Positions 13,774 through 59,900 of a DNA stretch of 64,000 nt are shown piece after piece. The stretch is from positions 416,001 through 480,000 of the forward strand of contig CP000070.1 in assembly GCA_000002445.1 (NCBI GenBank), read 5' to 3'. Below the pieces are notes generated by a model. The model saw only the letters and a list, made by a program, of their open reading frames with translations, had not been told where the DNA came from and searched no databases. Position 1 is the first letter of the stretch. Every line of letters starts with the position of its first letter. The stretch is from Trypanosoma brucei. Taxonomy: Eukaryota. The position numbers and the translations under genes were made by a program.

Positions 13774-14057
13774 ACTCAGCGGCGACGGTGGAGCACTGTG
13801 CATTATTACTTTGAAATAGTATTTTGTTTTTCGTTTGATGTGGGTGTGTTGTGTGTACTATTTTTCCACGGCTACCTATTCATCTTTCTCGGTTCTACTT
13901 AGGTGGAGCTTTAAATTTCACTTCAATAAAAAATCTCTCCTGCGTACTTTACGAAAGTTTTGTTACCAACAGAACACGAGTATCTAATTTTCTCCGTTCT
14001 GCCTTTACTTTAATGTTTATGACGGGACTCATACTGTTAGGAAAAGGTAGAGAAGTT

Positions 14058-14786
14058 ATGCCCGCTAAAGCTGTTCCCGCCCCGGAGTCTGCGATCAAGC
14101 GCGCTGCCTTCAAGCAGCAGCAGACGGAGAACTTCAAGAAGGCGATCGCTGCGAACAAAGTGGCGGCGGCTGCCCTGAAGAAACTTGCGTACAGTCGTGG
14201 TCTCAAGTACTCTCGTGAGTACCGCTCCACCGAGAAGAAGCTTGCTGGCTTGCGTCGGAACGCGAGGCAGCACGGTAACTACTACCTTGAGGCAAAACCA
14301 AAGGTAGCTGTTGTCACCCGTATTCGCGGTATTGCGAAGGTGCCACCAAAGCAGCGCAAGATCCTGCAGCTTCTGAGGCTCCGTCAGATCTTCAATACTG
14401 TGTTCGTGCGGTTGAATAAACCAATGGAGAATATGCTCCGCGCAGTGGAGCCGTACATTGCGTATGGCTATCCGTCATTGAGTACGGTACGCGCGATGGT
14501 GTACAAGCGTGGGCACTTGAAGATCAACGGTCAGCGTGTGAAGATCACCGATAACCAGATGATTAAGGACAAGTACCACAACGATGATATCGTCTGTGCC
14601 GAAGACATTGTTAACCAGATCTACGCCTGCGGTAAGCACTTCCGGACTGTGACGAATGGTTTGTGGCCCTTCAAGCTTGCGCCCCCTGCTGGTGGCATGC
14701 GGCAAAAGCGCCGTCACTTCGTCGAGGGTGGTGATTACGGCAACCGTGACACATTGATCAACCGCTTCCTCGCGCGTATGATCTAA
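14058..14786 (+). CDS. RPL7: 60S ribosomal protein L7 (uL30), copy 2
   Basis: Protein identical to copy 1. The longest ORF (13851..14786) has a 69-aa extension that is translated 3'UTR/intergenic sequence. The ATG at 14058 corresponds to the copy-1 start. Confidence 0.9.
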   Translation: MPAKAVPAPESAIKRAAFKQQQTENFKKAIAANKVAAAALKKLAYSRGLKYSREYRSTEKKLAGLRRNARQHGNYYLEAKPKVAVVTRIRGIAKVPPKQRKILQLLRLRQIFNTVFVRLNKPMENMLRAVEPYIAYGYPSLSTVRAMVYKRGHLKINGQRVKITDNQMIKDKYHNDDIVCAEDIVNQIYACGKHFRTVTNGLWPFKLAPPAGGMRQKRRHFVEGGDYGNRDTLINRFLARMI

Positions 14787-15070
14787 ACTCAGCGGCGACG
14801 GTGGAGCACTGTGCATTATTACTTTGAAATAGTATTTTGTTTTTCGTTTGATGTGGGTGTGTTGTGTGTACTATTTTTCCACGGCTACCTATTCATCTTT
14901 CTCGGTTCTACTTAGGTGGAGCTTTAAATTTCACTTCAATAAAAAATCTCTCCTGCGTACTTTACGAAAGTTTTGTTACCAACAGAACACGAGTATCTAA
15001 TTTTCTCCGTTCTGCCTTTACTTTAATGTTTATGACGGGACTCATACTGTTAGGAAAAGGTAGAGAAGTT

Positions 15071-15799
15071 ATGCCCGCTAAAGCTGTTCCCGCCCCGGAG
15101 TCTGCGATCAAGCGCGCTGCCTTCAAGCAGCAGCAGACGGAGAACTTCAAGAAGGCGATCGCTGCGAACAAAGTGGCGGCGGCTGCCCTGAAGAAACTTG
15201 CGTACAGTCGTGGTCTCAAGTACTCTCGTGAGTACCGCTCCACCGAGAAGAAGCTTGCTGGCTTGCGTCGGAACGCGAGGCAGCACGGTAACTACTACCT
15301 TGAGGCAAAACCAAAGGTAGCTGTTGTCACCCGTATTCGCGGTATTGCGAAGGTGCCACCAAAGCAGCGCAAGATCCTGCAGCTTCTGAGGCTCCGTCAG
15401 ATCTTCAATACTGTGTTCGTGCGGTTGAATAAACCAATGGAGAATATGCTCCGCGCAGTGGAGCCGTACATTGCGTATGGCTATCCGTCATTGAGTACGG
15501 TACGCGCGATGGTGTACAAGCGTGGGCACTTGAAGATCAACGGTCAGCGTGTGAAGATCACCGATAACCAGATGATTAAGGACAAGTACCACAACGATGA
15601 TATCGTCTGTGCCGAAGACATTGTTAACCAGATCTACGCCTGCGGTAAGCACTTCCGGACTGTGACGAATGGTTTGTGGCCCTTCAAGCTTGCGCCCCCT
15701 GCTGGTGGCATGCGGCAAAAGCGCCGTCACTTCGTCGAGGGTGGTGATTACGGCAACCGTGACACATTGATCAACCGCTTCCTCGCGCGTATGATCTAA
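15071..15799 (+). CDS. RPL7: 60S ribosomal protein L7 (uL30), copy 3
   Basis: Protein identical to copies 1 and 2. The downstream sequence diverges 7 nt after the stop. Confidence 0.9.
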   Translation: MPAKAVPAPESAIKRAAFKQQQTENFKKAIAANKVAAAALKKLAYSRGLKYSREYRSTEKKLAGLRRNARQHGNYYLEAKPKVAVVTRIRGIAKVPPKQRKILQLLRLRQIFNTVFVRLNKPMENMLRAVEPYIAYGYPSLSTVRAMVYKRGHLKINGQRVKITDNQMIKDKYHNDDIVCAEDIVNQIYACGKHFRTVTNGLWPFKLAPPAGGMRQKRRHFVEGGDYGNRDTLINRFLARMI

Positions 15800-16871
15800 A
15801 CTCTGTGGCGACAACTTCTTGAGGAAAACCTTTCCATCCTATTTAGTTTTCCTTTCTGATTTTTTGTGTTTGTTGATTTTACTATTTTTTACTGCCTGTT
15901 GAGGCTGCTTGCGTTCACTGTTTCCCAACCACTGCTGGCAGTTTGCTTTGTCATGTGGTGGTGGGGGGAAGGTGCTAGTTACTCGTCTCATCGGGTGATA
16001 TTTGTTTTGCCTATGATATTTGTATCTATGCTCTTTTCCCTAATTGTTCTTTTTTTTTTTTTGTATTCTAAAATGGGTCTTAGTTGTGTTTACCAGGTTG
16101 TCCATATCGTTTAGTACAAGTGGGTGCGGAGGTACTGTGTTTACTTATTAGCGGGACATTTCATGAAACGGAAAGAAGGCAATTGGAGGGTGAATGTCGT
16201 TGGGTTCTACGTGAGGGCACGGGCAGTCGTGGTTTAAACATTTTTTGTGGTCGCTGTGCAATCCCGATTCACGACATTCCTCACCACTATGATTAACTTG
16301 TAATGAAGTACTTCGTTGCAATGAGGGGGTGAAGGGTAGGTGAAGGGTATGTACTTTCACTAAGTTTCTAGCGGGGCAAACGGAAGGCGGTGTCTGCGAT
16401 CAGCCAACGGGATCTTGCGTGTGTTACAACTGAAAGTGCGCCATCCTGTGTATCTTGCGATAGGGCGGTGACGGTTATTGGTTCCCTTTGATTTTCAGTT
16501 CAAGCCATCACCAGTCACGCCTTGCGCCACAGTGCCTACGGCATTTGGTGTGTTGTTAAATTACAGGATTATTGGTTCCCCGCTCGTTATATCAGCAATG
16601 AATGCAGGAGAATGGGAGAAAGGGTCGAAGACAATGTTTTTTGTTTTCAACACAAGGGAGGAGACTCAGTATTAGGTGGTATACTTTCTTCATACGCCAA
16701 ATCTGTTCTAGACGTACGAGAGTGAGTTTGTCTCTCTTTCATTTACTTCATCGCTTCCCCACCCATTCAACTTCCTCCCCCGTTTTACCTACAACCGGGT
16801 GAGGAAGAAAAAATTGTAAAAGGTCTCCATTGTCATATAGCAGGAACTAAAACGTTTCCATTTCAGCAAAG

Positions 16872-24282: not shown

Positions 24283-24326
<44 letters not shown>
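24283..24326. repeat. (TA)~21 microsatellite
   Basis: Long perfect TA run read directly. Confidence 0.95.
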
Positions 24327-24541: not shown

Positions 24542-25252
24542 ATGTCGTCTTTAATGTCGGCAAATAATAGTGGTCTCGTCTTCGCTATGGCACTGACCAC
24601 CAACCAAACCTTCTTTCTAACGTACCACATGGGCAGCTACGCTAATAACGCCGTCATGCTTAGCAGCCGGAAACCTATGTTGATGAGAGACGTATTCTTG
24701 ACGAAATCTTCAAGTTTCTTCCCTAACCCCCTTTCGTGCGTTTATGTTCACAGTCCGTTGGATGCTGTGTTAAACAGTTTATTAGCATGGTTTTTAGTGA
24801 GACCAATTATCGAAATCATTGGTTGGAGGTCCGGAGTGGCGATATACTTCGGTTCAGGTTTCTTCAGCAGTTTCGCTTACATATTCAGTAGCCAACTCGG
24901 TACAGGGAGGACGAACACACCGTTTGATTGTGCAGACACGTCAAATGGTGCCTTTTCGGGTTTTGCGACCCTCAGCCTCGTATTGCCAAAATGTTATATA
25001 CCAACAAGCAAGCGCATCCCTACAAGCTACCTTGGTGTCCCATACCTCATCAAATGCTTCTACGACGAATACGTTGCTCCCCATTACGTTGACAAAAGAG
25101 AAAAGGGTGCTATCGAGCTGCGAAACTGGGGATTTGTTGGGGGAGTATTCTTCGTAATGATCTATACATCATTGGTACTTCGAACTAAACATGATATGAC
25201 AACAATGAGGACATTTTGGCGCAACATGGGCATTACTACGCGAAAAAAATAA
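24542..25252 (+). CDS. Hypothetical multi-pass membrane protein (236 aa)
   Basis: ORF with several hydrophobic segments ('GVAIYFGSGFFSSFAYIF', 'GFVGGVFFVMIYTSLVL'). A rhomboid-like 'GAFSGF' motif is weak. Annotated as hypothetical. Confidence 0.45.
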   Translation: MSSLMSANNSGLVFAMALTTNQTFFLTYHMGSYANNAVMLSSRKPMLMRDVFLTKSSSFFPNPLSCVYVHSPLDAVLNSLLAWFLVRPIIEIIGWRSGVAIYFGSGFFSSFAYIFSSQLGTGRTNTPFDCADTSNGAFSGFATLSLVLPKCYIPTSKRIPTSYLGVPYLIKCFYDEYVAPHYVDKREKGAIELRNWGFVGGVFFVMIYTSLVLRTKHDMTTMRTFWRNMGITTRKK

Positions 25253-25499
25253 TGCAGAACACACATACTGTGTAACAACAACTTTTATTTTACTTACAAA
25301 AAAAACTCACATTCCCTACTCTGCAAGGAACGAAAAAAAATACCATAATTTTCAACGACAATTAAACGTCACCGTCAAACTGTTTTACCAAACCGCAATG
25401 CACTCTTGTAAACGAACACACAGGTAGGCTAGGCGAGGTTTTTCACAAAAGGAATATATATATATATATATAAGGCTACGCCTAAATCCCTTTGACCTC

Positions 25500-26507
25500 A
25501 TGGGTTGCCAACGTATGGGGACCTATCCCATTGCGGGTGTGGAAGATGTGCGCCGTGCTGTCGTTTTGGAGGTGAACGATTTTTGTATTTCCGTGAAGCT
25601 GCCTCCTGCAAGTGAATTAAGGAAAGATTCCCGGTATGGCATTAACCTTGATGCCCAGGTTGTCGGTTTCAATGCAAGGCGCGTTCGCGACGAATATGAG
25701 CTTGCCTTTCGTATGTATCTTACTGGAAACGATCTTGAGAAGTACGCCCGGAGGTGCACGGTTGGGTACCTTTTTCTTCCATCCGGGGAGGAGCATTACC
25801 TCGGCCCGCTGATATTTGGTAGTGACTCGGTGTGCTCGGCCATGCTTGTGGGGGAAGTGCCATCAAATGTAGAGGTGTGCTTTGAGTGCCTTTCTCTTCC
25901 CAGAGGTATGACGGCTCTGATGCCTGCCTGCTTTCGCCTTGCAGAGATCATGGCGACCATTCTTGATGCTGACGTGCACAATGCATCAGTGGCCTCCTCG
26001 CATATGCAAAACTTGGTGAAACTGTTCCCTTCTTATGGTGACTGCATGATGCAGTTTGATAACTGGACCAAATTTGTGGAGTGCGCGGAAGCTCAACTGG
26101 GACTGTGGTGCACAAGAAGATACACCGAAGACGAAATCAAAAAATATGGATTTCGTAATGTTGCACATTATGAGGAGCCACGTCTTGTCTCAAAACGATT
26201 TATTTACGACTATGTTGATGGGGATGTTGGGAAAGATGCGTTGCATCATGAAAAGTTTGAGGAGTTGAAGAAGCTTGTTGCCGCTGCATTGAACTCTTGC
26301 ACTGACTGCCGGCGTCCTTCTCATCTGTGTAAGAAACACCTCACGGAGATATCAAGCATGCCTTGCGTTCTCCAGCTGAATCCCCCAAACTACTTGGCAC
26401 CCGTGACTGCTGAGGGAATCGTCTGGAGGATTGTTCTCCAAGACCCCCTCCATCCCCTCCGTGTTGTCTGGGAACGCAAAGTCACGCGGGTTCCAGATTT
26501 TCGCTAA
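25500..26507 (+). CDS. Hypothetical protein (335 aa; starts MGC..., a Gly2/Cys3 N-terminus), duplication copy A
   Basis: Long ORF, duplicated identically at 31061. A Cys-rich C-terminal region ('CTDCRRPSHLCKKH') is present. No known family recognised. Confidence 0.55.
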   Translation: MGCQRMGTYPIAGVEDVRRAVVLEVNDFCISVKLPPASELRKDSRYGINLDAQVVGFNARRVRDEYELAFRMYLTGNDLEKYARRCTVGYLFLPSGEEHYLGPLIFGSDSVCSAMLVGEVPSNVEVCFECLSLPRGMTALMPACFRLAEIMATILDADVHNASVASSHMQNLVKLFPSYGDCMMQFDNWTKFVECAEAQLGLWCTRRYTEDEIKKYGFRNVAHYEEPRLVSKRFIYDYVDGDVGKDALHHEKFEELKKLVAAALNSCTDCRRPSHLCKKHLTEISSMPCVLQLNPPNYLAPVTAEGIVWRIVLQDPLHPLRVVWERKVTRVPDFR

Positions 26508-27270
26508 TCCCAAATGCTTCCGTACGGCATTCATTATTTTACACCATCATGTAAGCTGTCAGGCAGCAATAGGGTCCTTAACACAATACATTTCCCTCCT
26601 CTTTCGCGTTTGACTTTCAATTCCTCAATGTTTTTGGTTGTCGCTGTTCTGTTTTTAACATTTTGCATGACTAATGTCTTTTGTTCATGTTTGTTCGTTT
26701 CCCTCTACGTCTGCTTTTGATGTTCCGTTATTTTACTTTTACGTTTGCTTTTTTTTCTTTACTGTTTGCTCCACCCCGTACTCCTTACGATTGGTAACAT
26801 CCTGATTCAAATGTCGGCTGCAGGTGATAGGGGAGCGAGCTTATGAAGACGTGGAAGTACTGCTTCTCCGTCATTTTCCCATCTTTTGTGTTTCAGCTCT
26901 TGTATGCGCCACCGAAGCACATTGTTAGATGCTACACATGTGCATGTAGAAGGACTTCCTTTTACGCACCTTTCTTTTTCTTTTCCATAATTATACTTTT
27001 GTGCTGTCTCCTACTGCTTTTCTTACCTTATGTATTTTTTTTACTCTTTGGTTACACACTCGTTACTTATCTTTTCCTTATATCCTTCCTAACATTATGG
27101 TGCTCCCATGGTTTTCCTCTTCTTTCCTGTGCGGTGGGCCCAGTTGCTGCGTCTATCCACTGCATTGCTGACCACTATCCACTCTCCCGTGCACTTATTA
27201 TGTTGTTTTCTCTTTTTTACTTTACTGAGCGCAACCGAATTGTGGGGGACATAGTAGAAGGCAAGACCAC

Positions 27271-27576
27271 TTGACCGCCCTAAGTGCGATGCCTGGGCGA
27301 AGAGGGAAGCAGCGTGTGAAGCGGAAGAAGTCGAAACGTCAGAGGCCTTCCGGGATGGAGCGTGTGCTTATTGAAAGCATACACGTGCGGAAGCATAAGG
27401 AGCGTGACATTCTGAAGCATCACATCCCCCCTTCAGTAAAACCGAGAGTGAAGAAAGTGTCGTTGGATGCGACATTGCCCATGTTTAATGCCATCTCTAA
27501 AAACGCCAACCGGAGTACCTCTTCAGTGACCATGGCGAAGGGAACCAAATCGAACGGTACTGTGGTAGGATGCTGA
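27271..27576 (+). CDS. Small basic hypothetical protein (101 aa), duplication copy A
   Basis: ORF in the sense orientation between larger genes. Lys/Arg-rich ('RRGKQRVKRKKSKRQRP'). Could equally be non-coding. Confidence 0.25.
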   Translation: MTALSAMPGRRGKQRVKRKKSKRQRPSGMERVLIESIHVRKHKERDILKHHIPPSVKPRVKKVSLDATLPMFNAISKNANRSTSSVTMAKGTKSNGTVVGC

Positions 27577-28220
27577 AGTTCCAACTGTTAGTGCACATGC
27601 GCGCTGTGTGGTAAACCCCTGCAAACTATTATACGCGGTTGCGTTGGGAGTACGACTCGTGCATGCGTGTGTGTAATTATTGGGGCTAGTGCTTTGAGAC
27701 GTACTATTGACAGGGCACCTTTACTGTGGAGATGTGCGAGGTGGACGTAATGTAGGTAAGGGTTATCGAGGTGTACCTCATCACTGTGATGCCTCTGTCA
27801 ACAGGTCCCTGCGTTCGTGGCCGCGTGGTGTATGAGTTGCTTCCTACTGTGTCGTGGGGAACTGTGAGCCACACCCTCTGAATTCTCAGCGTGTCCTCTG
27901 CACCTTTATTACGCCTGGGTGGGCCAGCTCTCTCTTCCCCCCGGGTCATGCATGGTGATATCTCTCCTGGCTCCGCATCCACTGTTAGTAGATGGTGGCG
28001 CCTTTAACGTTTGTATACTTCAGTGGTTCTCCTGTTTCAGCGCTTGGTACCGTCCTCCAGTTTCCCAGGAGTGAAGCCCACTATGGGTGTGCCACTGATT
28101 CGTGTCTTTTCTCTCTTTTCTGTCTCGCAACACTTTTGTGTAGTTAGCCCGCCACACTTGACCTTTGTTGAGGAAGGGGAGTGGGGGAACGAACCCACAG
28201 CGGATTAGACGAGACAACGG

Positions 28221-29321
28221 ATGAGTAGAGATGCGACACCCTACGAGGGCGAGGGTGATGATGACGATTATGACGGGGCAATGAGGTGTATTCTCGTGGA
28301 AAAGATACGGCGACACCGTGCTCTCGAGCGTGAGGGAAGCGTTAGGGTTATAACACGGAAAGGTGTACCACCCCCGACACTAGGGGAGCTGCGCGCGATA
28401 GCTGACAGGCGGTCGAGACATGAAGACCTGTTGAGGTTGCAGCGGCGTCTGGATGGGGTAGAGAGACGGATGGGGTTGTGGCGTGACTATCTTTCCTACG
28501 AGCCCCCACCCTTTATGTCCTCCAGCGTTCCTGCTAACGCTTCTGAGACTGGAATCCTTGAGGGACGCGCAGCACTTCTTTCACCACTTTCCACACTGTT
28601 TCGCATTTTGCTCCGCGAGAATCGCGCGCGCGAAAGGCTACGGTTGCTGCGAGCGCGGCCCCCCCTCCCCAAGTCGCAAACGCCATCGCTAGCTAGTGCT
28701 CGACGGATGTCATTGGAGGTGGCTCGTTTTGTGGGAGACGATATATTTGTTCCCCCTGGGGATGGGTGCCGTTCTGCAATAACTTCCGAGCAGTTGCTTG
28801 TAACACCCGCGTATGAGGTCGAACGCCTTCGAAACCCGCTGGTGTTCTTGGCTCGCGAGTACCGTATGGAGCGACTCCCTGAATTCTCACTAAACCCAGC
28901 AAAGTCTCCGGATACTGGTCACAGCTCTGTGGTGAGGAAGGATTGCGGTGCCTCGTCTGCAGTCACATTATCAGACTTCCGCCAGCCACCTGTGATGTTA
29001 GAGGCATTTAATATACCTTGCGGCATTTACGATGTGGGTCGTAGAGTCCACCTCATTCAGGGGTATGAGCCGCTGTACAGCAGTGATGGGCTTGGGTCTC
29101 TTGACTCTCTTAGTAAGGCCGTGAAGTGTAGGCGGGATGGACCGCAACGGGGCGATACTGCCTTCATTGACGGGCGGCTGTCTCAAAGTTTGTGGTGTTC
29201 TGGGACTCCAGCGAAACTACGAGGGCCGCTCCAGGAGGACTCGCTAAGCGGAAGCGACGACGACGAGGTCTCCCCAGCCTTCTGCGCGGATGTCTCATGG
29301 CTTCCCAAGTTCCCCGAGTAA
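28221..29321 (+). CDS. Hypothetical protein (366 aa; acidic N-terminus, Arg-rich helices), duplication copy A
   Basis: Long sense ORF, identical protein in copy B. No motif recognised. Confidence 0.55.
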   Translation: MSRDATPYEGEGDDDDYDGAMRCILVEKIRRHRALEREGSVRVITRKGVPPPTLGELRAIADRRSRHEDLLRLQRRLDGVERRMGLWRDYLSYEPPPFMSSSVPANASETGILEGRAALLSPLSTLFRILLRENRARERLRLLRARPPLPKSQTPSLASARRMSLEVARFVGDDIFVPPGDGCRSAITSEQLLVTPAYEVERLRNPLVFLAREYRMERLPEFSLNPAKSPDTGHSSVVRKDCGASSAVTLSDFRQPPVMLEAFNIPCGIYDVGRRVHLIQGYEPLYSSDGLGSLDSLSKAVKCRRDGPQRGDTAFIDGRLSQSLWCSGTPAKLRGPLQEDSLSGSDDDEVSPAFCADVSWLPKFPE

Positions 29322-29616
29322 CAAGATTGCGATAGTGAGGGAATAGTAGAGGATATTCTCTTACTGTGCACTGGGTGTATCATTCTGTCACCCGATGTAA
29401 TGTAATATATGGCGCAAAAGAATGTGCTTTTTGGTGAAGTGGATGCCTCCGGCACTGTTTCATTCGAATGGCTGCGTTTATTTTCTGTGTTGTCACTGCT
29501 CCGCCAACCTCTTGCACGCATCTGAGAACCCACTTGTTGATGCCTCTTTTCCCTTTACTTTTGTGTGCTCCCACCCTACGACCCCGTGTCACGTGACGCA
29601 GTTTTCACCGCCGACG

Positions 29617-30498
29617 ATGGTTGGCGAGAGGACCGTCTCTGGTGGTTGGAAACCTGATAGTTCGGCACCTGTGTGTGACAGCTGCGATGTCACGTTCACT
29701 GTTTACAGGAGACGCCACCACTGCCGTTGTTGCGGCGGCGTGTTTTGCAACTCATGCTCGAATACGTATGTGAGCATCCCAGCATTGCATGAAATGAAAC
29801 CACAGCGCGTGTGCCGCGCCTGTGCAACCGCGTTGTCTGGTGCCACAGATGCCTCTGCCACTGCCGGTTCGGCGGCAACCGACCCCGTGTCCGGCGGTTC
29901 CTTTCCCTCGATTGCGGAAGAGGAGGAGGAGGGAGGTGATGGCATTGTGTCTTCAGGCAGTAGTCGCCTCGACGACGATAGCGGTGATGTTGACGACAGT
30001 TCGTCTCATAGTGGGGACGTTTCGTCTGCCGTCGCGGCTGTGTATTCTTCCGTTGAGGAGGGACCACGCACCAGTAGCATGACCTTCATTGCGGCTTTGC
30101 AAGAGAATCTCAGACACTCGGATGATCCGGGTGTCGTGACAATCCTTATGTATGCTTCGGCGACGAGGCAGCAACTAATTCTTGTTACTGTGAGTGATGG
30201 AGAAACAATGTCGATGCTTGCAGAGCGACTAGCTGACACCTACCTCCGACTGGAGAACGGACCGTTCAAGGCCGCAAGTCTTACCGACCGGGAGAATGCG
30301 CTGAAGAGGTTGCGCTTCTTTAGTGAATCAGCTGCTGTGGATAACGGCGCTCAGGCAGTGTCCGTGGCGCTGCAGCATCGGCGCCTGGTTTTGACCGGTT
30401 GCTCGCTTTCCGAACTGCAGTGTCAGAGCGCGAAACCCCTCGTCCATGATTTTTTCTGCAGTAACATCAGTGCAGGGGAGTGTGGGGAGTGGGAATGA
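29617..30498 (+). CDS. FYVE zinc-finger protein (293 aa from ATG at 29617; longest ORF from 29422), duplication copy A
   Basis: Canonical FYVE signature: 'WKPD' (WxxD), 'RRRHHCRCCGGVFC' (R+HHCR) and 'RVCRAC' (RVC), with 8 Zn-coordinating Cys. The upstream ORF extension is pyrimidine-tract sequence. Confidence 0.75.
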   Translation: MVGERTVSGGWKPDSSAPVCDSCDVTFTVYRRRHHCRCCGGVFCNSCSNTYVSIPALHEMKPQRVCRACATALSGATDASATAGSAATDPVSGGSFPSIAEEEEEGGDGIVSSGSSRLDDDSGDVDDSSSHSGDVSSAVAAVYSSVEEGPRTSSMTFIAALQENLRHSDDPGVVTILMYASATRQQLILVTVSDGETMSMLAERLADTYLRLENGPFKAASLTDRENALKRLRFFSESAAVDNGAQAVSVALQHRRLVLTGCSLSELQCQSAKPLVHDFFCSNISAGECGEWE

Positions 30499-31060
30499 AG
30501 AAAGTGACTTTGTGCAATTATCGTTGCTGCAAATCACCCTTTTTAAGGTCTGCGTATGGACTATGCGTATTCCCAGGTTGGGTATGTAGTTACTTGAAGG
30601 AGGATAACCCCGTCTTCTAACCTAACCGGTGCCTTCCTTGCCGCATTCCGGCTTCTGGCGCCATCAGTCGCTGCTTGGTTTCATTTCCAACCACTCAATG
30701 ACTCATGGGGGATCTCTTTTACTTCACCTTTTTCCCCTTCTCACACTGTCGATGTGACAGTGTCTTTTCAGTGTTCTGCGTAATCCCTTGTTCATTTTCC
30801 TTTTCCCTCTTTGCTGCTAGAAGTTGCGCATTATGTGCGTTGTTGTGGTGCCAGTAGCACGTGTGTACTGATACACGCTCCTTTATGTGCGTGTGTGCGA
30901 ATCCGAGTAGGTACTGTGTTCTCTCCTCCTTTCTCGTACAACAAATTGTATAACCGCAATGCACTCTTGTAAACGAACACACAGGTAGGCTAGGCGAGGT
31001 TTTTCACAAAAGGAATATATATATATATATATAAGGCTACGCCTAAATCCCTTTGACCTC

Positions 31061-32068
31061 ATGGGTTGCCAACGTATGGGGACCTATCCCATTGCGGGTG
31101 TGGAAGATGTGCGCCGTGCTGTCGTTTTGGAGGTGAACGATTTTTGTATTTCCGTGAAGCTGCCTCCTGCAAGTGAATTAAGGAAAGATTCCCGGTATGG
31201 CATTAACCTTGATGCCCAGGTTGTCGGTTTCAATGCAAGGCGCGTTCGCGACGAATATGAGCTTGCCTTTCGTATGTATCTTACTGGAAACGATCTTGAG
31301 AAGTACGCCCGGAGGTGCACGGTTGGGTACCTTTTTCTTCCATCCGGGGAGGAGCATTACCTCGGCCCGCTGATATTTGGTAGTGACTCGGTGTGCTCGG
31401 CCATGCTTGTGGGGGAAGTGCCATCAAATGTAGAGGTGTGCTTTGAGTGCCTTTCTCTTCCCAGAGGTATGACGGCTCTGATGCCTGCCTGCTTTCGCCT
31501 TGCAGAGATCATGGCGACCATTCTTGATGCTGACGTGCACAATGCATCAGTGGCCTCCTCGCATATGCAAAACTTGGTGAAACTGTTCCCTTCTTATGGT
31601 GACTGCATGATGCAGTTTGATAACTGGACCAAATTTGTGGAGTGCGCGGAAGCTCAACTGGGACTGTGGTGCACAAGAAGATACACCGAAGACGAAATCA
31701 AAAAATATGGATTTCGTAATGTTGCACATTATGAGGAGCCACGTCTTGTCTCAAAACGATTTATTTACGACTATGTTGATGGGGATGTTGGGAAAGATGC
31801 GTTGCATCATGAAAAGTTTGAGGAGTTGAAGAAGCTTGTTGCCGCTGCATTGAACTCTTGCACTGACTGCCGGCGTCCTTCTCATCTGTGTAAGAAACAC
31901 CTCACGGAGATATCAAGCATGCCTTGCGTTCTCCAGCTGAATCCCCCAAACTACTTGGCACCCGTGACTGCTGAGGGAATCGTCTGGAGGATTGTTCTCC
32001 AAGACCCCCTCCATCCCCTCCGTGTTGTCTGGGAACGCAAAGTCACGCGGGTTCCAGATTTTCGCTAA
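31061..32068 (+). CDS. Hypothetical protein (335 aa), duplication copy B
   Basis: Protein identical to 25500..26507. Confidence 0.55.
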   Translation: MGCQRMGTYPIAGVEDVRRAVVLEVNDFCISVKLPPASELRKDSRYGINLDAQVVGFNARRVRDEYELAFRMYLTGNDLEKYARRCTVGYLFLPSGEEHYLGPLIFGSDSVCSAMLVGEVPSNVEVCFECLSLPRGMTALMPACFRLAEIMATILDADVHNASVASSHMQNLVKLFPSYGDCMMQFDNWTKFVECAEAQLGLWCTRRYTEDEIKKYGFRNVAHYEEPRLVSKRFIYDYVDGDVGKDALHHEKFEELKKLVAAALNSCTDCRRPSHLCKKHLTEISSMPCVLQLNPPNYLAPVTAEGIVWRIVLQDPLHPLRVVWERKVTRVPDFR

Positions 32069-32831
32069 TCCCAAATGCTTCCGTACGGCATTCATTATTT
32101 TACACCATCATGTAAGCTGTCAGGCAGCAATAGGGTCCTTAACACAATACATTTCCCTCCTCTTTCGCGTTTGACTTTCAATTCCTCAATGTTTTTGGTT
32201 GTCGCTGTTCTGTTTTTAACATTTTGCATGACTAATGTCTTTTGTTCATGTTTGTTCGTTTCCCTCTACGTCTGCTTTTGATGTTCCGTTATTTTACTTT
32301 TACGTTTGCTTTTTTTTCTTTACTGTTTGCTCCACCCCGTACTCCTTACGATTGGTAACATCCTGATTCAAATGTCGGCTGCAGGTGATAGGGGAGCGAG
32401 CTTATGAAGACGTGGAAGTACTGCTTCTCCGTCATTTTCCCATCTTTTGTGTTTCAGCTCTTGTATGCGCCACCGAAGCACATTGTTAGATGCTACACAT
32501 GTGCATGTAGAAGGACTTCCTTTTACGCACCTTTCTTTTTCTTTTCCATAATTATACTTTTGTGCTGTCTCCTACTGCTTTTCTTACCTTATGTATTTTT
32601 TTTACTCTTTGGTTACACACTCGTTACTTATCTTTTCCTTATATCCTTCCTAACATTATGGTGCTCCCATGGTTTTCCTCTTCTTTCCTGTGCGGTGGGC
32701 CCAGTTGCTGCGTCTATCCACTGCATTGCTGACCACTATCCACTCTCCCGTGCACTTATTATGTTGTTTTCTCTTTTTTACTTTACTGAGCGCAACCGAA
32801 TTGTGGGGGACATAGTAGAAGGCAAGACCAC

Positions 32832-33137
32832 TTGACCGCCCTAAGTGCGATGCCTGGGCGAAGAGGGAAGCAGCGTGTGAAGCGGAAGAAGTCGAAACGT
32901 CAGAGGCCTTCCGGGATGGAGCGTGTGCTTATTGAAAGCATACACGTGCGGAAGCATAAGGAGCGTGACATTCTGAAGCATCACATCCCCCCTTCAGTAA
33001 AACCGAGAGTGAAGAAAGTGTCGTTGGATGCGACATTGCCCATGTTTAATGCCATCTCTAAAAACGCCAACCGGAGTACCTCTTCAGTGACCATGGCGAA
33101 GGGAACCAAATCGAACGGTACTGTGGTAGGATGCTGA
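32832..33137 (+). CDS. Small basic hypothetical protein (101 aa), duplication copy B
   Basis: Identical to 27271..27576. Confidence 0.25.
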   Translation: MTALSAMPGRRGKQRVKRKKSKRQRPSGMERVLIESIHVRKHKERDILKHHIPPSVKPRVKKVSLDATLPMFNAISKNANRSTSSVTMAKGTKSNGTVVGC

Positions 33138-33781
33138 AGTTCCAACTGTTAGTGCACATGCGCGCTGTGTGGTAAACCCCTGCAAACTATTATACGCGGT
33201 TGCGTTGGGAGTACGACTCGTGCATGCGTGTGTGTAATTATTGGGGCTAGTGCTTTGAAACGTACTATTGACAGGGCACCTTTACTGTGGAGATGTGCGA
33301 GGTGGACGTAATGTAGGTAAGGGTTATCGAGGTGTACCTCATCACTGTGATGCCTCTGTCAACAGGTCCCTGCGTTCGTGGCCGCATGGTGTATGAGTTG
33401 CTTCCTACTGTGTCGTGGGGAACTGTGAGCCACACCCTCTGAATTCTCAGCGTGTCCTCTGCACCTTTATTACGCCTGGGTGGGCCAGCTCTCTCTTCCC
33501 CCCGGGTCATGCATGGTGATATCTCTCCTGGCTCCGCATCCACTGTTAGTAGATGGTGGCGCCTTTAACGTTTGTATACTTCAGTGGTTCTCCTGTTTCA
33601 GCGCTTGGTACCGTCCTCCAGTTTCCCAGGAGTGAAGCCCACTATGGGTGTGCCACTGATTCGTGTCTTTTCTCTCTTTTCTGTCCCGCAACACTTTTGT
33701 GTAGTTAGCCCGCCACACTTGACCTTTGTTGAGGAAGGGGAGTGGGGGAACGAACCCACAGCGGATTAGACGAGACAACGG

Positions 33782-34882
33782 ATGAGTAGAGATGCGACAC
33801 CCTACGAGGGCGAGGGTGATGATGACGATTATGACGGGGCAATGAGGTGTATTCTCGTGGAAAAGATACGGCGACACCGTGCTCTCGAGCGTGAGGGAAG
33901 CGTTAGGGTTATAACACGGAAAGGTGTACCACCCCCGACACTAGGGGAGCTGCGCGCGATAGCTGACAGGCGGTCGAGACATGAAGACCTGTTGAGGTTG
34001 CAGCGGCGTCTGGATGGGGTAGAGAGACGGATGGGGTTGTGGCGTGACTATCTTTCCTACGAGCCCCCACCCTTTATGTCCTCCAGCGTTCCTGCTAACG
34101 CTTCTGAGACTGGAATCCTTGAGGGACGCGCAGCACTTCTTTCACCACTTTCCACACTGTTTCGCATTTTGCTCCGCGAGAATCGCGCGCGCGAAAGGCT
34201 ACGGTTGCTGCGAGCGCGGCCCCCCCTCCCCAAGTCGCAAACGCCATCGCTAGCTAGTGCTCGACGGATGTCATTGGAGGTGGCTCGTTTTGTGGGAGAC
34301 GATATATTTGTTCCCCCTGGGGATGGGTGCCGTTCTGCAATAACTTCCGAGCAGTTGCTTGTAACACCCGCGTATGAGGTCGAACGCCTTCGAAACCCGC
34401 TGGTGTTCTTGGCTCGCGAGTACCGTATGGAGCGACTCCCTGAATTCTCACTAAACCCAGCAAAGTCTCCGGATACTGGTCACAGCTCTGTGGTGAGGAA
34501 GGATTGCGGTGCCTCGTCTGCAGTCACATTATCAGACTTCCGCCAGCCACCTGTGATGTTAGAGGCATTTAATATACCTTGCGGCATTTACGATGTGGGT
34601 CGTAGAGTCCACCTCATTCAGGGGTATGAGCCGCTGTACAGCAGTGATGGGCTTGGGTCTCTTGACTCTCTTAGTAAGGCCGTGAAGTGTAGGCGGGATG
34701 GACCACAACGGGGCGATACTGCCTTCATTGACGGGCGGCTGTCTCAAAGTTTGTGGTGTTCTGGGACTCCAGCGAAACTACGAGGGCCGCTCCAGGAGGA
34801 CTCGCTAAGCGGAAGCGACGACGACGAGGTCTCCCCAGCCTTCTGCGCGGATGTCTCATGGCTTCCCAAGTTCCCCGAGTAA
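33782..34882 (+). CDS. Hypothetical protein (366 aa), duplication copy B
   Basis: Protein identical to 28221..29321. One synonymous difference, ccg to cca, at 29144 versus 34705. Confidence 0.55.
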   Translation: MSRDATPYEGEGDDDDYDGAMRCILVEKIRRHRALEREGSVRVITRKGVPPPTLGELRAIADRRSRHEDLLRLQRRLDGVERRMGLWRDYLSYEPPPFMSSSVPANASETGILEGRAALLSPLSTLFRILLRENRARERLRLLRARPPLPKSQTPSLASARRMSLEVARFVGDDIFVPPGDGCRSAITSEQLLVTPAYEVERLRNPLVFLAREYRMERLPEFSLNPAKSPDTGHSSVVRKDCGASSAVTLSDFRQPPVMLEAFNIPCGIYDVGRRVHLIQGYEPLYSSDGLGSLDSLSKAVKCRRDGPQRGDTAFIDGRLSQSLWCSGTPAKLRGPLQEDSLSGSDDDEVSPAFCADVSWLPKFPE

Positions 34883-35177
34883 CAAGATTGCGATAGTGAG
34901 GGAATAGTAGAGGATATTCTCTTACTGTGCACTGGGTGTATCATTCTGTCACCCGATGTAATGTAATATATGGCGCAAAAGAATGTGCTTTTTGGTGAAG
35001 TGGATGCCTCCGGCACTGTTTCATTCGAATGGCTGCGTTTATTTTCTGTGTTGTCACTGCTCCGCCAACCTCTTGCACGCATCTGAGAACCCACTTGTTG
35101 ATGCCTCTTTTCCCTTTACTTTTGTGTGCTCCCACCCTACGACCCCGTGTCACGTGACGCAGTTTTCACCGCCGACG

Positions 35178-36059
35178 ATGGTTGGCGAGAGGACCGTCTC
35201 TGGTGGTTGGAAACCTGATAGTTCGGCACCTGTGTGTGACAGCTGCGATGTCACGTTCACTGTTTACAGGAGACGCCACCACTGCCGTTGTTGCGGCGGC
35301 GTGTTTTGCAACTCATGCTCGAATACGTATGTGAGCATCCCAGCATTGCATGAAATGAAACCACAGCGCGTGTGCCGCGCCTGTGCAACCGCGTTGTCTG
35401 GTGCCACAGATGCCTCTGCCACTGCCGGTTCGGCGGCAACCGACCCCGTGTCCGGCGGTTCCTTTCCCTCGATTGCGGAAGAGGAGGAGGAGGGAGGTGA
35501 TGGCATTGTGTCTTCAGGCAGTAGTCGCCTCGACGACGATAGCGGTGATGTTGACGACAGTTCGTCTCATAGTGGGGACGTTTCGTCTGCCGTCGCGGCT
35601 GTGTATTCTTCCGTTGAGGAGGGACCACGCACCAGTAGCATGACCTTCATTGCGGCTTTGCAAGAGAATCTCAGACACTCGGATGATCCGGGTGTCGTGA
35701 CAATCCTTATGTATGCTTCGGCGACGAGGCAGCAACTAATTCTTGTTACTGTGAGTGATGGAGAAACAATGTCGATGCTTGCAGAGCGACTAGCTGACAC
35801 CTACCTCCGACTGGAGAACGGACCGTTCAAGGCCGCAAGTCTTACCGACCGGGAGAATGCGCTGAAGAGGTTGCGCTTCTTTAGTGAATCAGCTGCTGTG
35901 GATAACGGCGCTCAGGCAGTGTCCGTGGCGCTGCAGCATCGGCGCCTGGTTTTGACCGGTTGCTCGCTTTCCGAACTGCAGTGTCAGAGCGCGAAACCCC
36001 TCGTCCATGATTTTTTCTGCAGTAACATCAGTGCAGGGGAGTGTGGGGAGTGGGAATGA
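35178..36059 (+). CDS. FYVE zinc-finger protein, duplication copy B
   Basis: Identical to copy A. WxxD, R+HHCR and RVC motifs present. Confidence 0.75.
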   Translation: MVGERTVSGGWKPDSSAPVCDSCDVTFTVYRRRHHCRCCGGVFCNSCSNTYVSIPALHEMKPQRVCRACATALSGATDASATAGSAATDPVSGGSFPSIAEEEEEGGDGIVSSGSSRLDDDSGDVDDSSSHSGDVSSAVAAVYSSVEEGPRTSSMTFIAALQENLRHSDDPGVVTILMYASATRQQLILVTVSDGETMSMLAERLADTYLRLENGPFKAASLTDRENALKRLRFFSESAAVDNGAQAVSVALQHRRLVLTGCSLSELQCQSAKPLVHDFFCSNISAGECGEWE

Positions 36060-36592
36060 AGAAAGTGACTTTGTGCAATTATCGTTGCTGCAAATCACCC
36101 TTTTTAAGGTCTGCGTATGGACTATGCGTATTCCCAGGTTGGGTATGTAGTTACTTGAAGGAGGATAACCCCGTCTTCTAACCTAACCGGTGCCTTCCTT
36201 GCCGCATTCCGGCTTCTGGCGCCATCAGTCGCTGCTTGGTTTCATTTCCAACCACTCAATGACTCATGGGGGATCTCTTTTACTTCACCTTTTTCCCCTT
36301 CTCACACTGTCGATGTGACAGTGTCTTTTCAGTGTTCTGCGTAATCCCTTGTTCATTTTCCTTTTCCCTCTTTGCTGCTAGAAGTTGCGCATTATGTGCG
36401 TTGTTGTGGTGCCAGTAGCACGTGTGTACTGATACACGCTCCTTTATGTGCGTGTGTGCGAATCCGAGTAGGTACTGTGTTCTCTCCTCCTTTCTCGTAC
36501 AACAAATTGTATAACCGCAATGCACTCTTGTAAACGAACACACAGGTAGGCTAGGCGAGGTTTTTCACAAAAGGAATATATATATATATCCA

Positions 36593-37459
36593 ATGAATGT
36601 TTCTGAGTTTCTAAAAGTTTGGAAAGACGTTAAAGTTTGTGATGACGTCGTCGCTGATGGTGGCAGTGGTGGTTGTAACCTTGATATTGGTGTACCCTCT
36701 TTGTCTGAAGTGGATGATGGAGACGAGGTTCCTGTAGAATATGGTGATGTATCACGTGATGATTTTGGTGGTGATGACGGTGGTTGTGAAGTTTTTGATG
36801 AAGCGGGGTCGTTCTTTTATGGTCAGCGGAGTAAGCGGAGGAGATATGATGGTTTGAAGACGGATAGTATATCCTTGTGCAAACCTCGTGAACCATATGC
36901 CTGCCTGAAAACTTTTAGCACTAATGAGGGCAGTTATGACAATTTTGTTTCTGGTGATTCCGGAAGAAAGAGGGTGAAAGTCCAGATAGCTGGCCGCGGT
37001 AAGCCGAGGAAGGGATCGTTGGCTGCCGTTACTGCTTTACGCGAGGAGCTGCTGAGGAAAAAGACACTACTCGACAAGTCTTGTCGTCAAGAAGTCGTGG
37101 ATTCTTCCACAAATGAAGAGTTTCCGACCATTGCAGAAGGGGAAAGCACGCTGGATGAGTTGCTGCTTAGTGTAGAAGATTTAGTACCTGTCGGGAACTT
37201 GGCAACAATCGTTGAAAAAAGTTTGGCACCCGCGCAAACCTCATCAGTCGAAGATCCGACTCTGTCGGCGGTAAGTACGGAGGCGGAAACTCCCCTTAAG
37301 GTCGACGAGCCGGGTGAACGCAAAGAAAGTACTGGCAGTGCCCCGAAAGCGGGGAAGCTAAGCATGTTTGCACGGGCGAAGTTGTACGTAAGTGGTGGGG
37401 ATGCTCTAGAAGGAAAGGCAAACATAGAAGATTTTTTTGGAAAGAGGTTTACGTCATAG
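36593..37459 (+). CDS. Hypothetical acidic protein (288 aa)
   Basis: Long sense ORF with D/E/G-rich N-terminus. The ATG lies 3 nt after the (TA)n tract of the partial third duplication unit. Confidence 0.5.
   Translation: MNVSEFLKVWKDVKVCDDVVADGGSGGCNLDIGVPSLSEVDDGDEVPVEYGDVSRDDFGGDDGGCEVFDEAGSFFYGQRSKRRRYDGLKTDSISLCKPREPYACLKTFSTNEGSYDNFVSGDSGRKRVKVQIAGRGKPRKGSLAAVTALREELLRKKTLLDKSCRQEVVDSSTNEEFPTIAEGESTLDELLLSVEDLVPVGNLATIVEKSLAPAQTSSVEDPTLSAVSTEAETPLKVDEPGERKESTGSAPKAGKLSMFARAKLYVSGGDALEGKANIEDFFGKRFTS

Positions 37460-54268: not shown

Positions 54269-54307
<39 letters not shown>

Positions 54308-59853: not shown

Positions 59854-59900
<47 letters not shown>

What the first reader, a model, noticed from the sequence alone, without database searches (positions are those of the whole stretch)
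25393..36589. Recent 5,561-bp tandem duplication of a four-gene block with breakpoints at a (TA)n microsatellite; a 75-bp third partial unit forms the 5' flank of the next gene
Units 25393-30953 and 30954-36514 are near-identical. The same 5' end ('aaccgcaatgcactcttgtaaacgaacacacaggtaggctaggcgaggtttttcacaaaaggaa(TA)n') appears a third time at 36515-36589. There it stops inside the (TA)n run and continues as unique sequence 3 nt before the ATG at 36593. The (TA)n run lies at 25455-25471, 31015-31032 and 36576-36589. It is the only junction sequence. This fits unequal crossing-over or replication slippage at the microsatellite as the duplication mechanism. Two genes, the 335-aa protein and the 288-aa protein, end up sharing the same upstream processing region.
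Basis: seen in the sequence. Interest (0 to 1): 0.6.

Follow-up and report, generated by a model that had tools for sequence, protein, structure and literature searches.

The report
Tandem four-gene duplication in Trypanosoma brucei
This is a real but ordinary head-to-tail duplication of a 5.6-kb four-gene block on Trypanosoma brucei chromosome 7, already present in the reference annotation, kept nearly identical and variable in copy number by unequal recombination, as in many other trypanosome gene arrays.

Summary
Period-5561 identity runs from 25391 to 36589, which is two units plus 77 bp, with only 4 mismatches. The window is T. b. brucei TREU927 chromosome 7 (Tb927.7.1800-1910), and the duplicated proteins are already deposited as identical pairs.

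The duplication is not an assembly artefact. T. b. gambiense DAL972 carries it too. Published read depth gives about 1.7-4.4 copies per haploid genome in every T. brucei strain tested, and about 3 in TREU927. T. vivax and T. grayi have one copy.

The interpretation needs correcting in three places:
- **Junction.** The homology shared at all three junctions is 64 nt of complex sequence plus the TA run, and the left edge has no microsatellite. A crossover within (TA)n alone cannot give this structure. Unequal homologous exchange on the 77-bp direct repeat can.
- **Age.** "Recent" describes the last homogenisation, not the origin. Units differ by 0.07% within TREU927 but 0.85% between strains, and the 77-bp terminal copy carries its own haplotype-specific variants.
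- **Gene content.** The fourth gene is a conserved 95-aa basic protein, not the 143-aa ORF.

The 288-aa gene and the second 335-aa copy share 530 bp of upstream sequence, including the probable splice-acceptor AG cluster. Known kind, low interest.

The parts
25391..30951 (+). Unit 1 of the tandem duplication (5,561 bp)
   Evidence: Period-5561 identity with 4 mismatches
30952..36512 (+). Unit 2 of the tandem duplication (5,561 bp)
25391..25467 (+). 77-bp element A, copy 1: 64 nt of complex sequence plus the shared part of the TA run. It follows the unique 3' flank of the 236-aa gene.
30952..31028 (+). 77-bp element A, copy 2, at the unit1|unit2 junction
36513..36589 (+). 77-bp element A', the truncated third unit. 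It ends in the TA run 3 nt before the ATG of the 288-aa gene.
   Evidence: A' carries its own variants in DAL972 (1 difference) and GCA_003543875.1 (3 differences).
25455..25472 (.). (TA)9 microsatellite, unit 1. The equivalents are 31016-31033 (TA)9 and 36577-36589 (TA)6+T. Length is polymorphic between assemblies (6 to 15 repeats).
25422..25437 (+). Cluster of four AG dinucleotides inside A (CAGGTAGGCTAGGCGAG), also at 30983-30998 and 36544-36559. These are inferred trans-splice acceptor candidates.
   Evidence: Read from the sequence. In units 1 and 2 these are the first AGs downstream of the polypyrimidine tract. Usage is not tested.
30919..30935 (+). Polypyrimidine tract TTCTCTCCTCCTTTCTC at the 3' end of the unit, also at 36480-36496, immediately upstream of A copy 2 and of A'
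   Evidence: Read from the sequence
25500..26507 (+). 335-aa conserved hypothetical protein (second copy 31061-32068). Deposited as AAZ12246 and AAZ12250.
   Evidence: Orthologues in T. grayi and T. vivax.
27289..27576 (+). 95-aa lysine/arginine-rich conserved small protein (second copy 32850-33137). This is the real fourth gene of the unit.
   Evidence: 60-75% identical to 90-100-aa ORFs at the same position in T. vivax and T. grayi.
28221..29321 (+). 366-aa conserved hypothetical protein (second copy 33782-34882). Deposited as AAZ12248 and AAZ12252.
29422..30498 (+). FYVE zinc-finger protein, Tb927.7.1840 (second copy 34983-36059). The ORF is 358 aa. The deposited protein is 293 aa, starting at Met66 (29617).
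   Evidence: Pfam FYVE E=1.4e-21..
36593..37459 (+). 288-aa gene downstream of the array. Its whole 5' flank, 36060-36589, is identical to the flank of the second 335-aa copy.
24542..25252 (+). 236-aa rhomboid-like gene, the unique left flank of the array

Best explanation
The window is T. brucei brucei TREU927 chromosome 7. A block of four co-transcribed genes is present as a head-to-tail array of two 5,561-bp units, closed by a 77-bp copy (A') of the unit's first 77 bp. The four genes are a 335-aa protein, a 95-aa basic protein, a 366-aa protein and a FYVE zinc-finger protein.

The block was single-copy in the trypanosome ancestor and became an array within the T. brucei lineage. The layout is A-unit-A-unit-A'. 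This layout is both the product of, and the substrate for, unequal homologous exchange between direct repeats, whether between sister chromatids or between homologues. Misaligned pairing on the 77-bp element or on whole units adds or removes units. The same exchanges, together with gene conversion, keep the units almost identical within a genome while strains diverge. The result is a homogenised array of variable copy number, not a single young event.

The TA microsatellite is only where the terminal partial copy joins the unique sequence 3 nt before the next gene's ATG. This join is probably a separate microhomology-type event. It could be a deletion within a former third unit, or a templated patch.

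One consequence follows (inferred). The 288-aa gene, the second 335-aa copy and both FYVE copies share one 530-bp processing region. It contains a polypyrimidine tract, an AG cluster inside A and the 5' UTR. The first 335-aa copy shares only the 77 bp.

Shown: the structure, the organism, presence in a second subspecies, one copy in two outgroup species, the within- versus between-strain distances, and published depth-based copy numbers. Inferred: the recombination mechanism, the order of events and splice-site usage.
For: - **Structure.**
- **Identity of the locus.** Exact protein matches to TREU927 entries AAZ12245-AAZ12254, with each duplicated protein listed under two accessions. The FYVE gene is Tb927.7.1840. 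Tb927.7.1820 and 1860 are listed together in one table row in a transcriptome study.
- **Independent assembly.** DAL972 chromosome 7 has 236 / 335 / 95 / 366 / FYVE / 335 / 95 / (gap) / FYVE / 288, with A at three places and different TA lengths.
- **Read depth** (Mulindwa et al. 2021, PMC8459984, S2 Table). Tb927.7.1810 gives 1.68-1.89 in four T. b. rhodesiense isolates, MAK98 and EATRO1125. It gives 2.43-2.55 in Lister 427, 3.18 in MAK65 and 3.08 in TREU927. Tb927.7.1840 shows the same ranking across strains (1.9-4.4).
- **Concerted pattern**. TREU unit 1 against unit 2 differs at 4 of 5561 sites. TREU against DAL unit 1 differs at 47 of 5561. In DAL972 the two units are 99.7-99.9% identical over the aligned parts.
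- **Age of A'.** A' carries variants not found in A: CACGAAAGG in both DAL972 and GCA_003543875.1, plus 2 more in the latter.
- **Outgroups.** T. vivax and T. grayi have one copy of the block in the same gene order.
- **Background.** Multi-gene segmental duplications and array evolution by unequal crossing-over and gene conversion are described for T. brucei (PMC2854126, PMC1855330). Two other arrays lie in the same window.
Against: - The order of events that produced three A copies cannot be reconstructed. No assembly shows a state without A'.
- The two single-unit assemblies are T. equiperdum OVI and GCA_003543875.1. The latter is probably IVM-t1, and PMC6395869 describes the IVM-t1 assembly as MiSeq reads plus roughly 2x PacBio coverage by my arithmetic. 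I recall OVI as a short-read assembly, which I did not check here. A collapsed array would look exactly like A-unit-A', so neither proves a one-unit allele.
- The depth estimates are noisy. The two genes of the unit disagree by up to 1.7-fold in some libraries, and they disagree on the direction of change in MAK65 cultures.
- No long-read or junction-spanning read evidence was available.
- Splice-acceptor usage was not found in the supplementary tables searched.
Confidence: 0.8

Rival explanations
1. A single recent unequal crossover or replication slippage occurred between two (TA)n microsatellites, one upstream of the 335-aa gene and one upstream of the 288-aa gene. This created the duplication, and the TA run is the only junction homology.
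For: The homology of the terminal copy does end inside a TA run. The TA run is length-polymorphic between copies and strains, so it is unstable. If the 64-nt segment was originally native to the FYVE-288 spacer, a TA-TA exchange would explain the middle and terminal junctions.
Against: All three junction copies share 64 nt of non-repetitive sequence 5' of the TA run. The first copy abuts unique sequence at 25390|25391 with no TA and no microhomology. An exchange confined to TA would leave the first TA run preceded by different sequence, so at least one further event is needed. The array is shared by two subspecies, and read depth is about 2 or more in all strains tested. It is therefore not a single recent event in this isolate.
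Confidence: 0.1
2. Assembly artefact. A single-copy locus, or its two alleles, was laid out twice in tandem in the reference.
For: The 4 differences in 5.6 kb (0.07%) could in principle be allelic differences rather than differences between copies (my judgement; I did not look up heterozygosity for this strain). Two T. equiperdum assemblies show one unit.
Against: DAL972, sequenced by whole-genome shotgun, has two units with their own SNPs, their own TA lengths and a gap. Mapping reads to one representative gene gives about 1.7-4.4 copies per haploid genome in 17 libraries, and about 3 for TREU927 itself.
Confidence: 0.03
3. Recurrent independent duplications. The standing ancestral allele is one unit flanked by A and A'. 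Exchange between the two 77-bp repeats has generated the two-unit allele separately in the TREU927-like and DAL972-like haplotype families. Under this model there is no long-lived array homogenised by conversion.
For: Two haplotype families exist: TREU927 with OVI, and DAL972 with GCA_003543875.1. They are about 0.85% apart, and each contains a two-unit and a one-unit assembly. A' has diverged from A, so it is old. Exchange on fixed repeats would reproduce identical breakpoints every time.
Against: The one-unit assemblies may be collapsed (methods for IVM-t1). No strain with depth near 1 was seen. Seventy-seven bp is a short substrate compared with the 5.5-kb units, which dominate exchange once an array exists. 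This model differs from the main explanation only in history, not in mechanism.
Confidence: 0.15

Closest known systems
[quoted passage not shown] 2010, PMC2854126)
   Same: Head-to-tail repeats of one to several co-transcribed genes on core chromosomes. Copies evolve in concert by unequal crossing-over and gene conversion. Copy number differs between strains and subspecies. The genes are single-copy in other trypanosomatids. One published example is a 3-gene unit repeated five times on chromosome 9.
   Different: This array has the same copy number in the TREU927 and DAL972 assemblies, so it is not in the published table of subspecies-specific duplications. Its copies encode identical proteins, so it offers no isoform diversification. 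The genes are not obvious dosage genes or surface proteins.
Gene amplification and deletion at low-copy direct repeats in Leishmania (Ubeda et al. 2014, PLoS Biol; from my own knowledge, not read here)
   Same: Short direct repeats bracket a group of co-transcribed genes and act as substrates for homologous recombination that changes the copy number of the bracketed segment.
   Different: The Leishmania repeats are longer (hundreds of bp), belong to genome-wide families and typically give extrachromosomal circles. Here the 77-bp element occurs only at this locus within the window, and the product is an intrachromosomal tandem array. Circles were not tested.
Other arrays in the same window: ribosomal protein L7/L30 (13044-15812) and RHS genes (49021-64000, minus strand)
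   Same: Near-identical tandem units (99.9% and about 99%) that end in a partial unit. The L7 array is 2 units plus 743 bp, or 2.73 units. A fractional last unit is therefore normal for arrays here.
   Different: The L7 array has single-gene units. The unit content of the RHS array was not examined beyond its 686-690-aa ORFs. The RHS array lies in a low-GC region on the other strand.

Membership tests
Trypanosome tandem or segmental gene array evolving by unequal crossing-over and gene conversion | Two or more head-to-tail copies of the same gene-bearing unit on one strand | tested here: met
   Two 5,561-bp units plus 77 bp, all genes on the + strand
Trypanosome tandem or segmental gene array evolving by unequal crossing-over and gene conversion | Copies within a genome are more alike than orthologous copies between strains (concerted evolution) | tested here: met
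   4/5561 within TREU927 against 47/5561 between TREU927 and DAL972. DAL972 units are 99.7-99.9% alike.
Trypanosome tandem or segmental gene array evolving by unequal crossing-over and gene conversion | Copy number varies between isolates | tested here: inconclusive
   Published depth gives about 1.7-1.9 in some strains and about 3 in TREU927 and MAK65, consistently for two genes of the unit. The estimates are noisy, and the one-unit assemblies may be collapsed.
Trypanosome tandem or segmental gene array evolving by unequal crossing-over and gene conversion | Single copy at the syntenic position in outgroup species | tested here: met
   T. vivax and T. grayi have one copy in the same gene order
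Microsatellite-mediated duplication (slippage or unequal exchange confined to a simple repeat) | Junction homology consists of the microsatellite only, and both ends of the duplicated segment lie in the repeat | tested here: not met
   64 nt of complex sequence is shared 5' of the TA run at all three junctions. The left boundary 25390|25391 has no TA.
Non-allelic homologous recombination between flanking direct repeats | A one-unit allele exists in which the unit is bracketed by the two repeat copies | tested here: inconclusive
   Exactly this arrangement is seen in T. equiperdum OVI and GCA_003543875.1. Neither assembly is shown to rest on reads long enough to span a 5.5-kb repeat, so both could be collapsed arrays (for IVM-t1; OVI from memory).
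Non-allelic homologous recombination between flanking direct repeats | The repeat at the new junction is a hybrid of the two flanking repeats | tested here: inconclusive
   In DAL972 the middle A has the A-type base at the one informative site. This fits a crossover 5' of that site, but also conversion. TREU927 has no informative sites.
Assembly duplication artefact | Read depth over the repeated segment equals single-copy depth | tested here: not met
   Published depth-based copy number for TREU927 is 2.89 and 3.08 for two genes of the unit
Shared trans-splicing and 5' UTR region for the 335-aa and 288-aa genes | The same splice-acceptor AG is used by both mRNAs | not testable with these tools
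   The sequence is identical for 530 bp upstream, and the AG cluster lies in A. No spliced-leader mapping for these genes was found in the supplements searched.

The most novel reading that the evidence does not exclude
The 77-bp element A may be more than a by-product. It could be a portable splice-acceptor and 5'-UTR cassette. Copying it in front of the 288-aa gene would have replaced that gene's own processing signals, and it would also have created a dedicated direct-repeat pair. That pair would make this four-gene block a reversible amplicon whose copy number (about 2 to 4) is selected under different growth conditions. This would be analogous to repeat-bracketed amplicons in Leishmania, but chromosomal and in T. 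brucei.
Probability: 0.07. Interest if true: 0.4.

Novelty: already known. Interest (0 to 1): 0.15.

Why it matters
The practical value is modest.
- Tb927.7.1810-1840 and 1850-1880 are identical pairs. Read mapping, RNAi, knock-out and tagging designs must treat them as multi-copy.
- TREU927 reads suggest about three units per haploid genome, against two in the reference. The reference may under-represent the array, or the two homologues may differ.
- The junction anatomy gives a clean local example of how trypanosome arrays expand and contract. It shows that a truncated terminal unit can supply the whole 5' processing region of an unrelated downstream gene.

None of this changes current understanding of trypanosome genome dynamics.

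Tried and rejected
- **Diverged third unit.** I looked for homology between the sequence downstream of A' (the 288-aa gene) and the unit, to test whether the 288-aa gene is a diverged third copy. blastn with word size 7, tblastx and blastp found nothing above noise. Rejected.
- **Native context of A.** I looked for A, or either T. brucei spacer, in the corresponding T. vivax and T. grayi spacers. Scores fell within the shuffled range, apart from one borderline value (31 against a shuffle maximum of 30 for the 236-335 spacer against T. grayi). Uninformative.
- **Mapped splice-acceptor sites.** I searched the supplements of three T. brucei transcriptome papers. Either nothing was held or the genes were absent. 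The only hit was a joint expression entry for Tb927.7.1820/1860.
- **Other papers naming these gene IDs.** None discusses the locus structure.
- **Logan short-read contigs carrying the 366-aa gene**. They are too short to reach the junctions. I also expect a short-k-mer assembly graph to look the same for one or two units (my reasoning), so they cannot count copies.
- **Homologues of the 335-aa protein.** The search returned only T. brucei-group sequences. Outgroup loci were reached through the FYVE protein instead.
- **A labelling error of mine.** I called locus L012 'BoTat' in the script. Its accessions (GCA_003543875.1, CM010678.1) most likely belong to T. equiperdum IVM-t1, because that strain has a chromosome-level T. 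equiperdum assembly.
Full report
**1. The observation**

A comparison of the window with itself at offset 5561 shows identity from 25391 to 31028 against 30952 to 36589. There are four mismatches, at 27698, 27825, 28125 and 29144. The periodic tract is therefore 11,199 bp, or 2 x 5561 + 77. BLAST gives 99.929% identity over 5,638 columns.

The first 77 bp of the unit are AACCGCAATG...AAAAGGAA followed by TA repeats. They occur three times, at 25391, 30952 and 36513. A 48-nt core allowing up to 3 mismatches occurs only at those three places, against 0 expected in shuffles. The third copy ends within the TA run at 36589. It is followed by CCA and then the ATG at 36593.

Three mismatches are intergenic. 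The fourth is at a third codon position in the 366-aa ORF, and all protein pairs are identical.

**2. What the locus is**

Exact protein look-ups identify the window as Trypanosoma brucei brucei TREU927 chromosome 7. The 236-aa protein is AAZ12245. The 335-aa protein is AAZ12246 and AAZ12250. The 366-aa protein is AAZ12248 and AAZ12252. The FYVE protein is AAZ12249 and AAZ12253. The 288-aa protein is AAZ12254. The duplication is therefore already in the deposited annotation.

The FYVE gene is Tb927.7.1840. Tb927.7.1820 and 1860 appear together in one row of an expression table.

The surrounding genes are:
- two adenine-type phosphoribosyltransferases;
- a rhomboid-like 236-aa protein;
- the array itself;
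- the 288-aa gene;
- a protein kinase;
- glycine dehydrogenase.

The unit holds four genes:
- the 335-aa protein;
- a 95-aa lysine/arginine-rich protein at 27289-27576, which is 60-75% identical to ORFs at the same position in T. vivax and T. grayi;
- the 366-aa protein;
- the FYVE protein (Pfam E = 1.4e-21).

The 143-aa ORF at 26843-27274 has no homologue in the outgroup loci. Its exact sequence is not in the protein collection. I regard it as doubtful.

**3. Is the duplication real?**

Yes, on two lines of evidence.

*An independent assembly.* T. b. gambiense DAL972 chromosome 7 carries two units followed by the 288-aa gene. It was sequenced by whole-genome shotgun and ordered on the TREU927 template (PMC2854126). 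Its A copies are at three places. Its TA lengths differ, at 15, 13 and 8 repeats. It has its own inter-unit differences and a 100-N gap in unit 2.

*Published read depth.* Mulindwa et al. 2021 (PMC8459984, S2 Table) mapped genomic reads to one representative of each gene family (header checked). Haploid copy numbers were:

| Strain or library | Tb927.7.1810 | Tb927.7.1840 |
|---|---|---|
| Four T. b. rhodesiense isolates | 1.68-1.78 | 2.34-2.64 |
| MAK98 (blood) | 1.89 | 1.96 |
| EATRO1125 | 1.81 | 2.59 |
| Lister 427 (three lines) | 2.43-2.55 | 3.67-4.39 |
| MAK65 (blood) | 3.18 | 3.03 |
| TREU927 | 3.08 | 2.89 |

No strain is near 1, so an assembly artefact is excluded.

The two genes rank the strains in the same way, which argues for real variation between about 2 and 3 or more units. 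Their absolute values disagree by up to 1.7-fold. They also disagree on the direction of change in MAK65 cultures. I therefore treat the polymorphism as likely, not proven.

TREU927 reads suggest about three units per haploid genome, against two in the reference.

**4. Other assemblies**

T. equiperdum OVI (L001) and GCA_003543875.1 (L012) each show one unit bracketed by A and A'. L012 is labelled T. b. equiperdum and is most probably strain IVM-t1.

PMC6395869 describes the IVM-t1 assembly as MiSeq reads assembled at k = 68, plus 7,508 PacBio reads of mean 8.5 kb, which I calculate as about 2x coverage. It was scaffolded on TREU927. From memory, unchecked here, OVI is a short-read assembly.

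A collapsed two-unit array would give exactly the same contig. These assemblies therefore do not prove a one-unit allele.

**5. Age and dynamics**

Pairwise differences over the unit are:

| Comparison | Differences |
|---|---|
| TREU927 unit 1 vs unit 2 | 4 of 5561 |
| TREU927 vs OVI | 6 |
| TREU927 vs DAL972 unit 1 | 47 of 5561 (0.85%) |
| DAL972 unit 1 vs GCA_003543875.1 | 4 |

The DAL972 units are 99.7-99.9% identical to each other over the parts that align.

Units therefore group by genome and not by position. That is the signature of concerted evolution, or of repeated re-creation of the array.

A' behaves differently. In DAL972 and GCA_003543875.1 it carries CACGAAAGG where every A has CACAAAAGG. 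In GCA_003543875.1 it has two further private changes. So A' is an old, separately evolving copy.

The block is single-copy, in the same gene order, in T. vivax and T. grayi. The array therefore arose on the T. brucei branch. T. congolense could not be examined, because its FYVE protein has no contig on record.

"Recent" describes the last homogenisation, not necessarily the origin.

**6. Mechanism**

One unequal exchange between two copies of a homology tract H gives H-U-H-U-H, and the tract seen three times is H. Here H is 77 bp: 64 nt of complex sequence plus 13 nt of TA.

The left boundary has no TA and no microhomology. It reads ...TTTTACCA|AACCGC for the first unit and ...AATTGTAT|AACCGC for the later ones. 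An exchange confined to the microsatellite cannot put the 64-nt segment in front of the first unit.

Two kinds of junction must be explained:
- **The unit-end|A junction**, present twice, which is non-homologous.
- **The (TA)|CCAATG junction**, present once, which lies in the microsatellite.

The simplest histories need at least two events:
- a non-homologous tandem duplication of 25391-30951, followed by a TA-mediated deletion within a terminal unit;
- a TA-TA exchange followed by a deletion at the left edge;
- a templated 77-bp patch followed by exchange between A and A'.

I cannot discriminate between these. The spacers are 247 bp (236-aa gene to 335-aa gene) and 533 bp (FYVE to 288-aa gene). 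Their counterparts in T. vivax and T. grayi are similar, at about 240-250 bp and 484-546 bp. Length gives no clue, and the outgroup spacers do not align.

Whatever the origin, the present array is a substrate for unequal homologous exchange, on 5.5-kb units and on the 77-bp ends. From established knowledge, not tested here, T. brucei repairs breaks by RAD51-dependent recombination and by microhomology-mediated joining, and it lacks classical end joining. Both junction types fit that repertoire.

**7. Consequence for RNA processing (inferred)**

The 530 bp upstream of the 288-aa ATG region (36060-36589) are identical to the 530 bp upstream of the second 335-aa copy (30499-31028). This tract contains:
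- several polypyrimidine tracts, the last at 30919-30935 and 36480-36496;
- 46 nt further on, the first AG dinucleotides, a cluster of four inside A (CAGGTAGGCTAGGCGAG).

By the usual trypanosome rule, the acceptor is the first AG after the polypyrimidine tract. Both genes should therefore be trans-spliced inside A, and the entire 5' UTR of the 288-aa mRNA would be A-derived.

The first 335-aa copy has only weak pyrimidine runs upstream, and an earlier AG near 25326. It may be processed differently. No spliced-leader mapping for these genes was found.

**8. Comparison with what is known, and verdict**

Multi-gene segmental duplications and tandem arrays are well described in T. brucei (PMC1855330, PMC2854126). 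Homogenisation by unequal crossing-over and gene conversion is described, and so is variation between strains. The same window contains two more arrays, ribosomal protein L7/L30 and RHS genes. The L7/L30 array also ends in a partial unit.

This locus meets the defining features of that class that I could test. It fails the test for a purely microsatellite-mediated duplication. It works like repeat-bracketed amplicons in Leishmania, but I do not file it there.

It is a correct observation of an ordinary, already annotated feature. The junction anatomy and the mismatch between reference and read-depth copy number are minor additions.

Noticed in passing
window 13044-15812: Tandem array of ribosomal protein L7/L30 genes (Pfam Ribosomal_L30 and L30_N). 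The period is 1013 bp, with 2 units plus 743 bp (2.73 units) at 99.7-99.9% identity. It is another array that ends in a partial unit.
   Followed up: partly
window 47000-64000: GC content drops from about 47% to 31-41% and GC skew changes sign at about 48 kb. Genes switch to the minus strand, giving a convergent strand switch between 46993 and 49663. Three 686-690-aa retrotransposon hot spot (RHS) genes form a tandem array on the minus strand (49021-64000, period about 5583-5593, about 99% identity) that runs off the window.
   Followed up: partly
window 36593-37459: The 288-aa protein is named 'T. brucei spp.-specific protein' in the DAL972 annotation. It nevertheless has weak but significant homologues at the same syntenic position in T. 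grayi (E = 1.7e-13) and T. vivax (E = 2.9e-11). It is a fast-evolving conserved gene, not an orphan.
   Followed up: partly
window 26843-27274 and 27289-27576 (and +5561): The 143-aa ORF has no homologue in the outgroup loci, and its exact sequence is absent from the protein collection. The adjacent 95-aa K/R-rich ORF is conserved in T. vivax and T. grayi. It is the likely product of Tb927.7.1820/1860, which has read counts in a published transcriptome expression table.
   Followed up: partly
window 29422-30498: The FYVE ORF is 358 aa from the first ATG. Orthologue alignments begin at Met66, and TREU927 annotates 293 aa while DAL972 annotates 358 aa. The gene models are inconsistent between the two reference annotations.
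   Followed up: no
window 25391-36512 versus published read depth: TREU927 genomic reads give about 2.9-3.1 copies of the unit per haploid genome, but the reference sequence has 2. Either the reference is one unit short or the two homologues carry different numbers.
   Followed up: partly
L011 12793-13347 (DAL972 chr 7, unit 2): There is a 100-N gap followed by about 455 bp that does not align to unit 1 or to TREU927. No 366-aa gene is called in DAL972 unit 2. This is probably a local assembly defect.
   Followed up: no
window 24283-24326: A second AT/TA microsatellite, (AT)22, lies about 215 bp upstream of the 236-aa gene, 1.1 kb left of the array. It is the only simple repeat reported at TRF score 80 or above.
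   Followed up: no
window 27698-29144: All four inter-unit differences lie in the central 1.45 kb of the unit. The outer 2.3 kb and 1.8 kb are identical. By my own rough calculation the chance of such clustering is about 0.06. This is possibly a hint that the ends of the units were homogenised more recently. At the two sites where OVI is informative, its single assembled unit matches unit 1 at one and unit 2 at the other.
   Followed up: no
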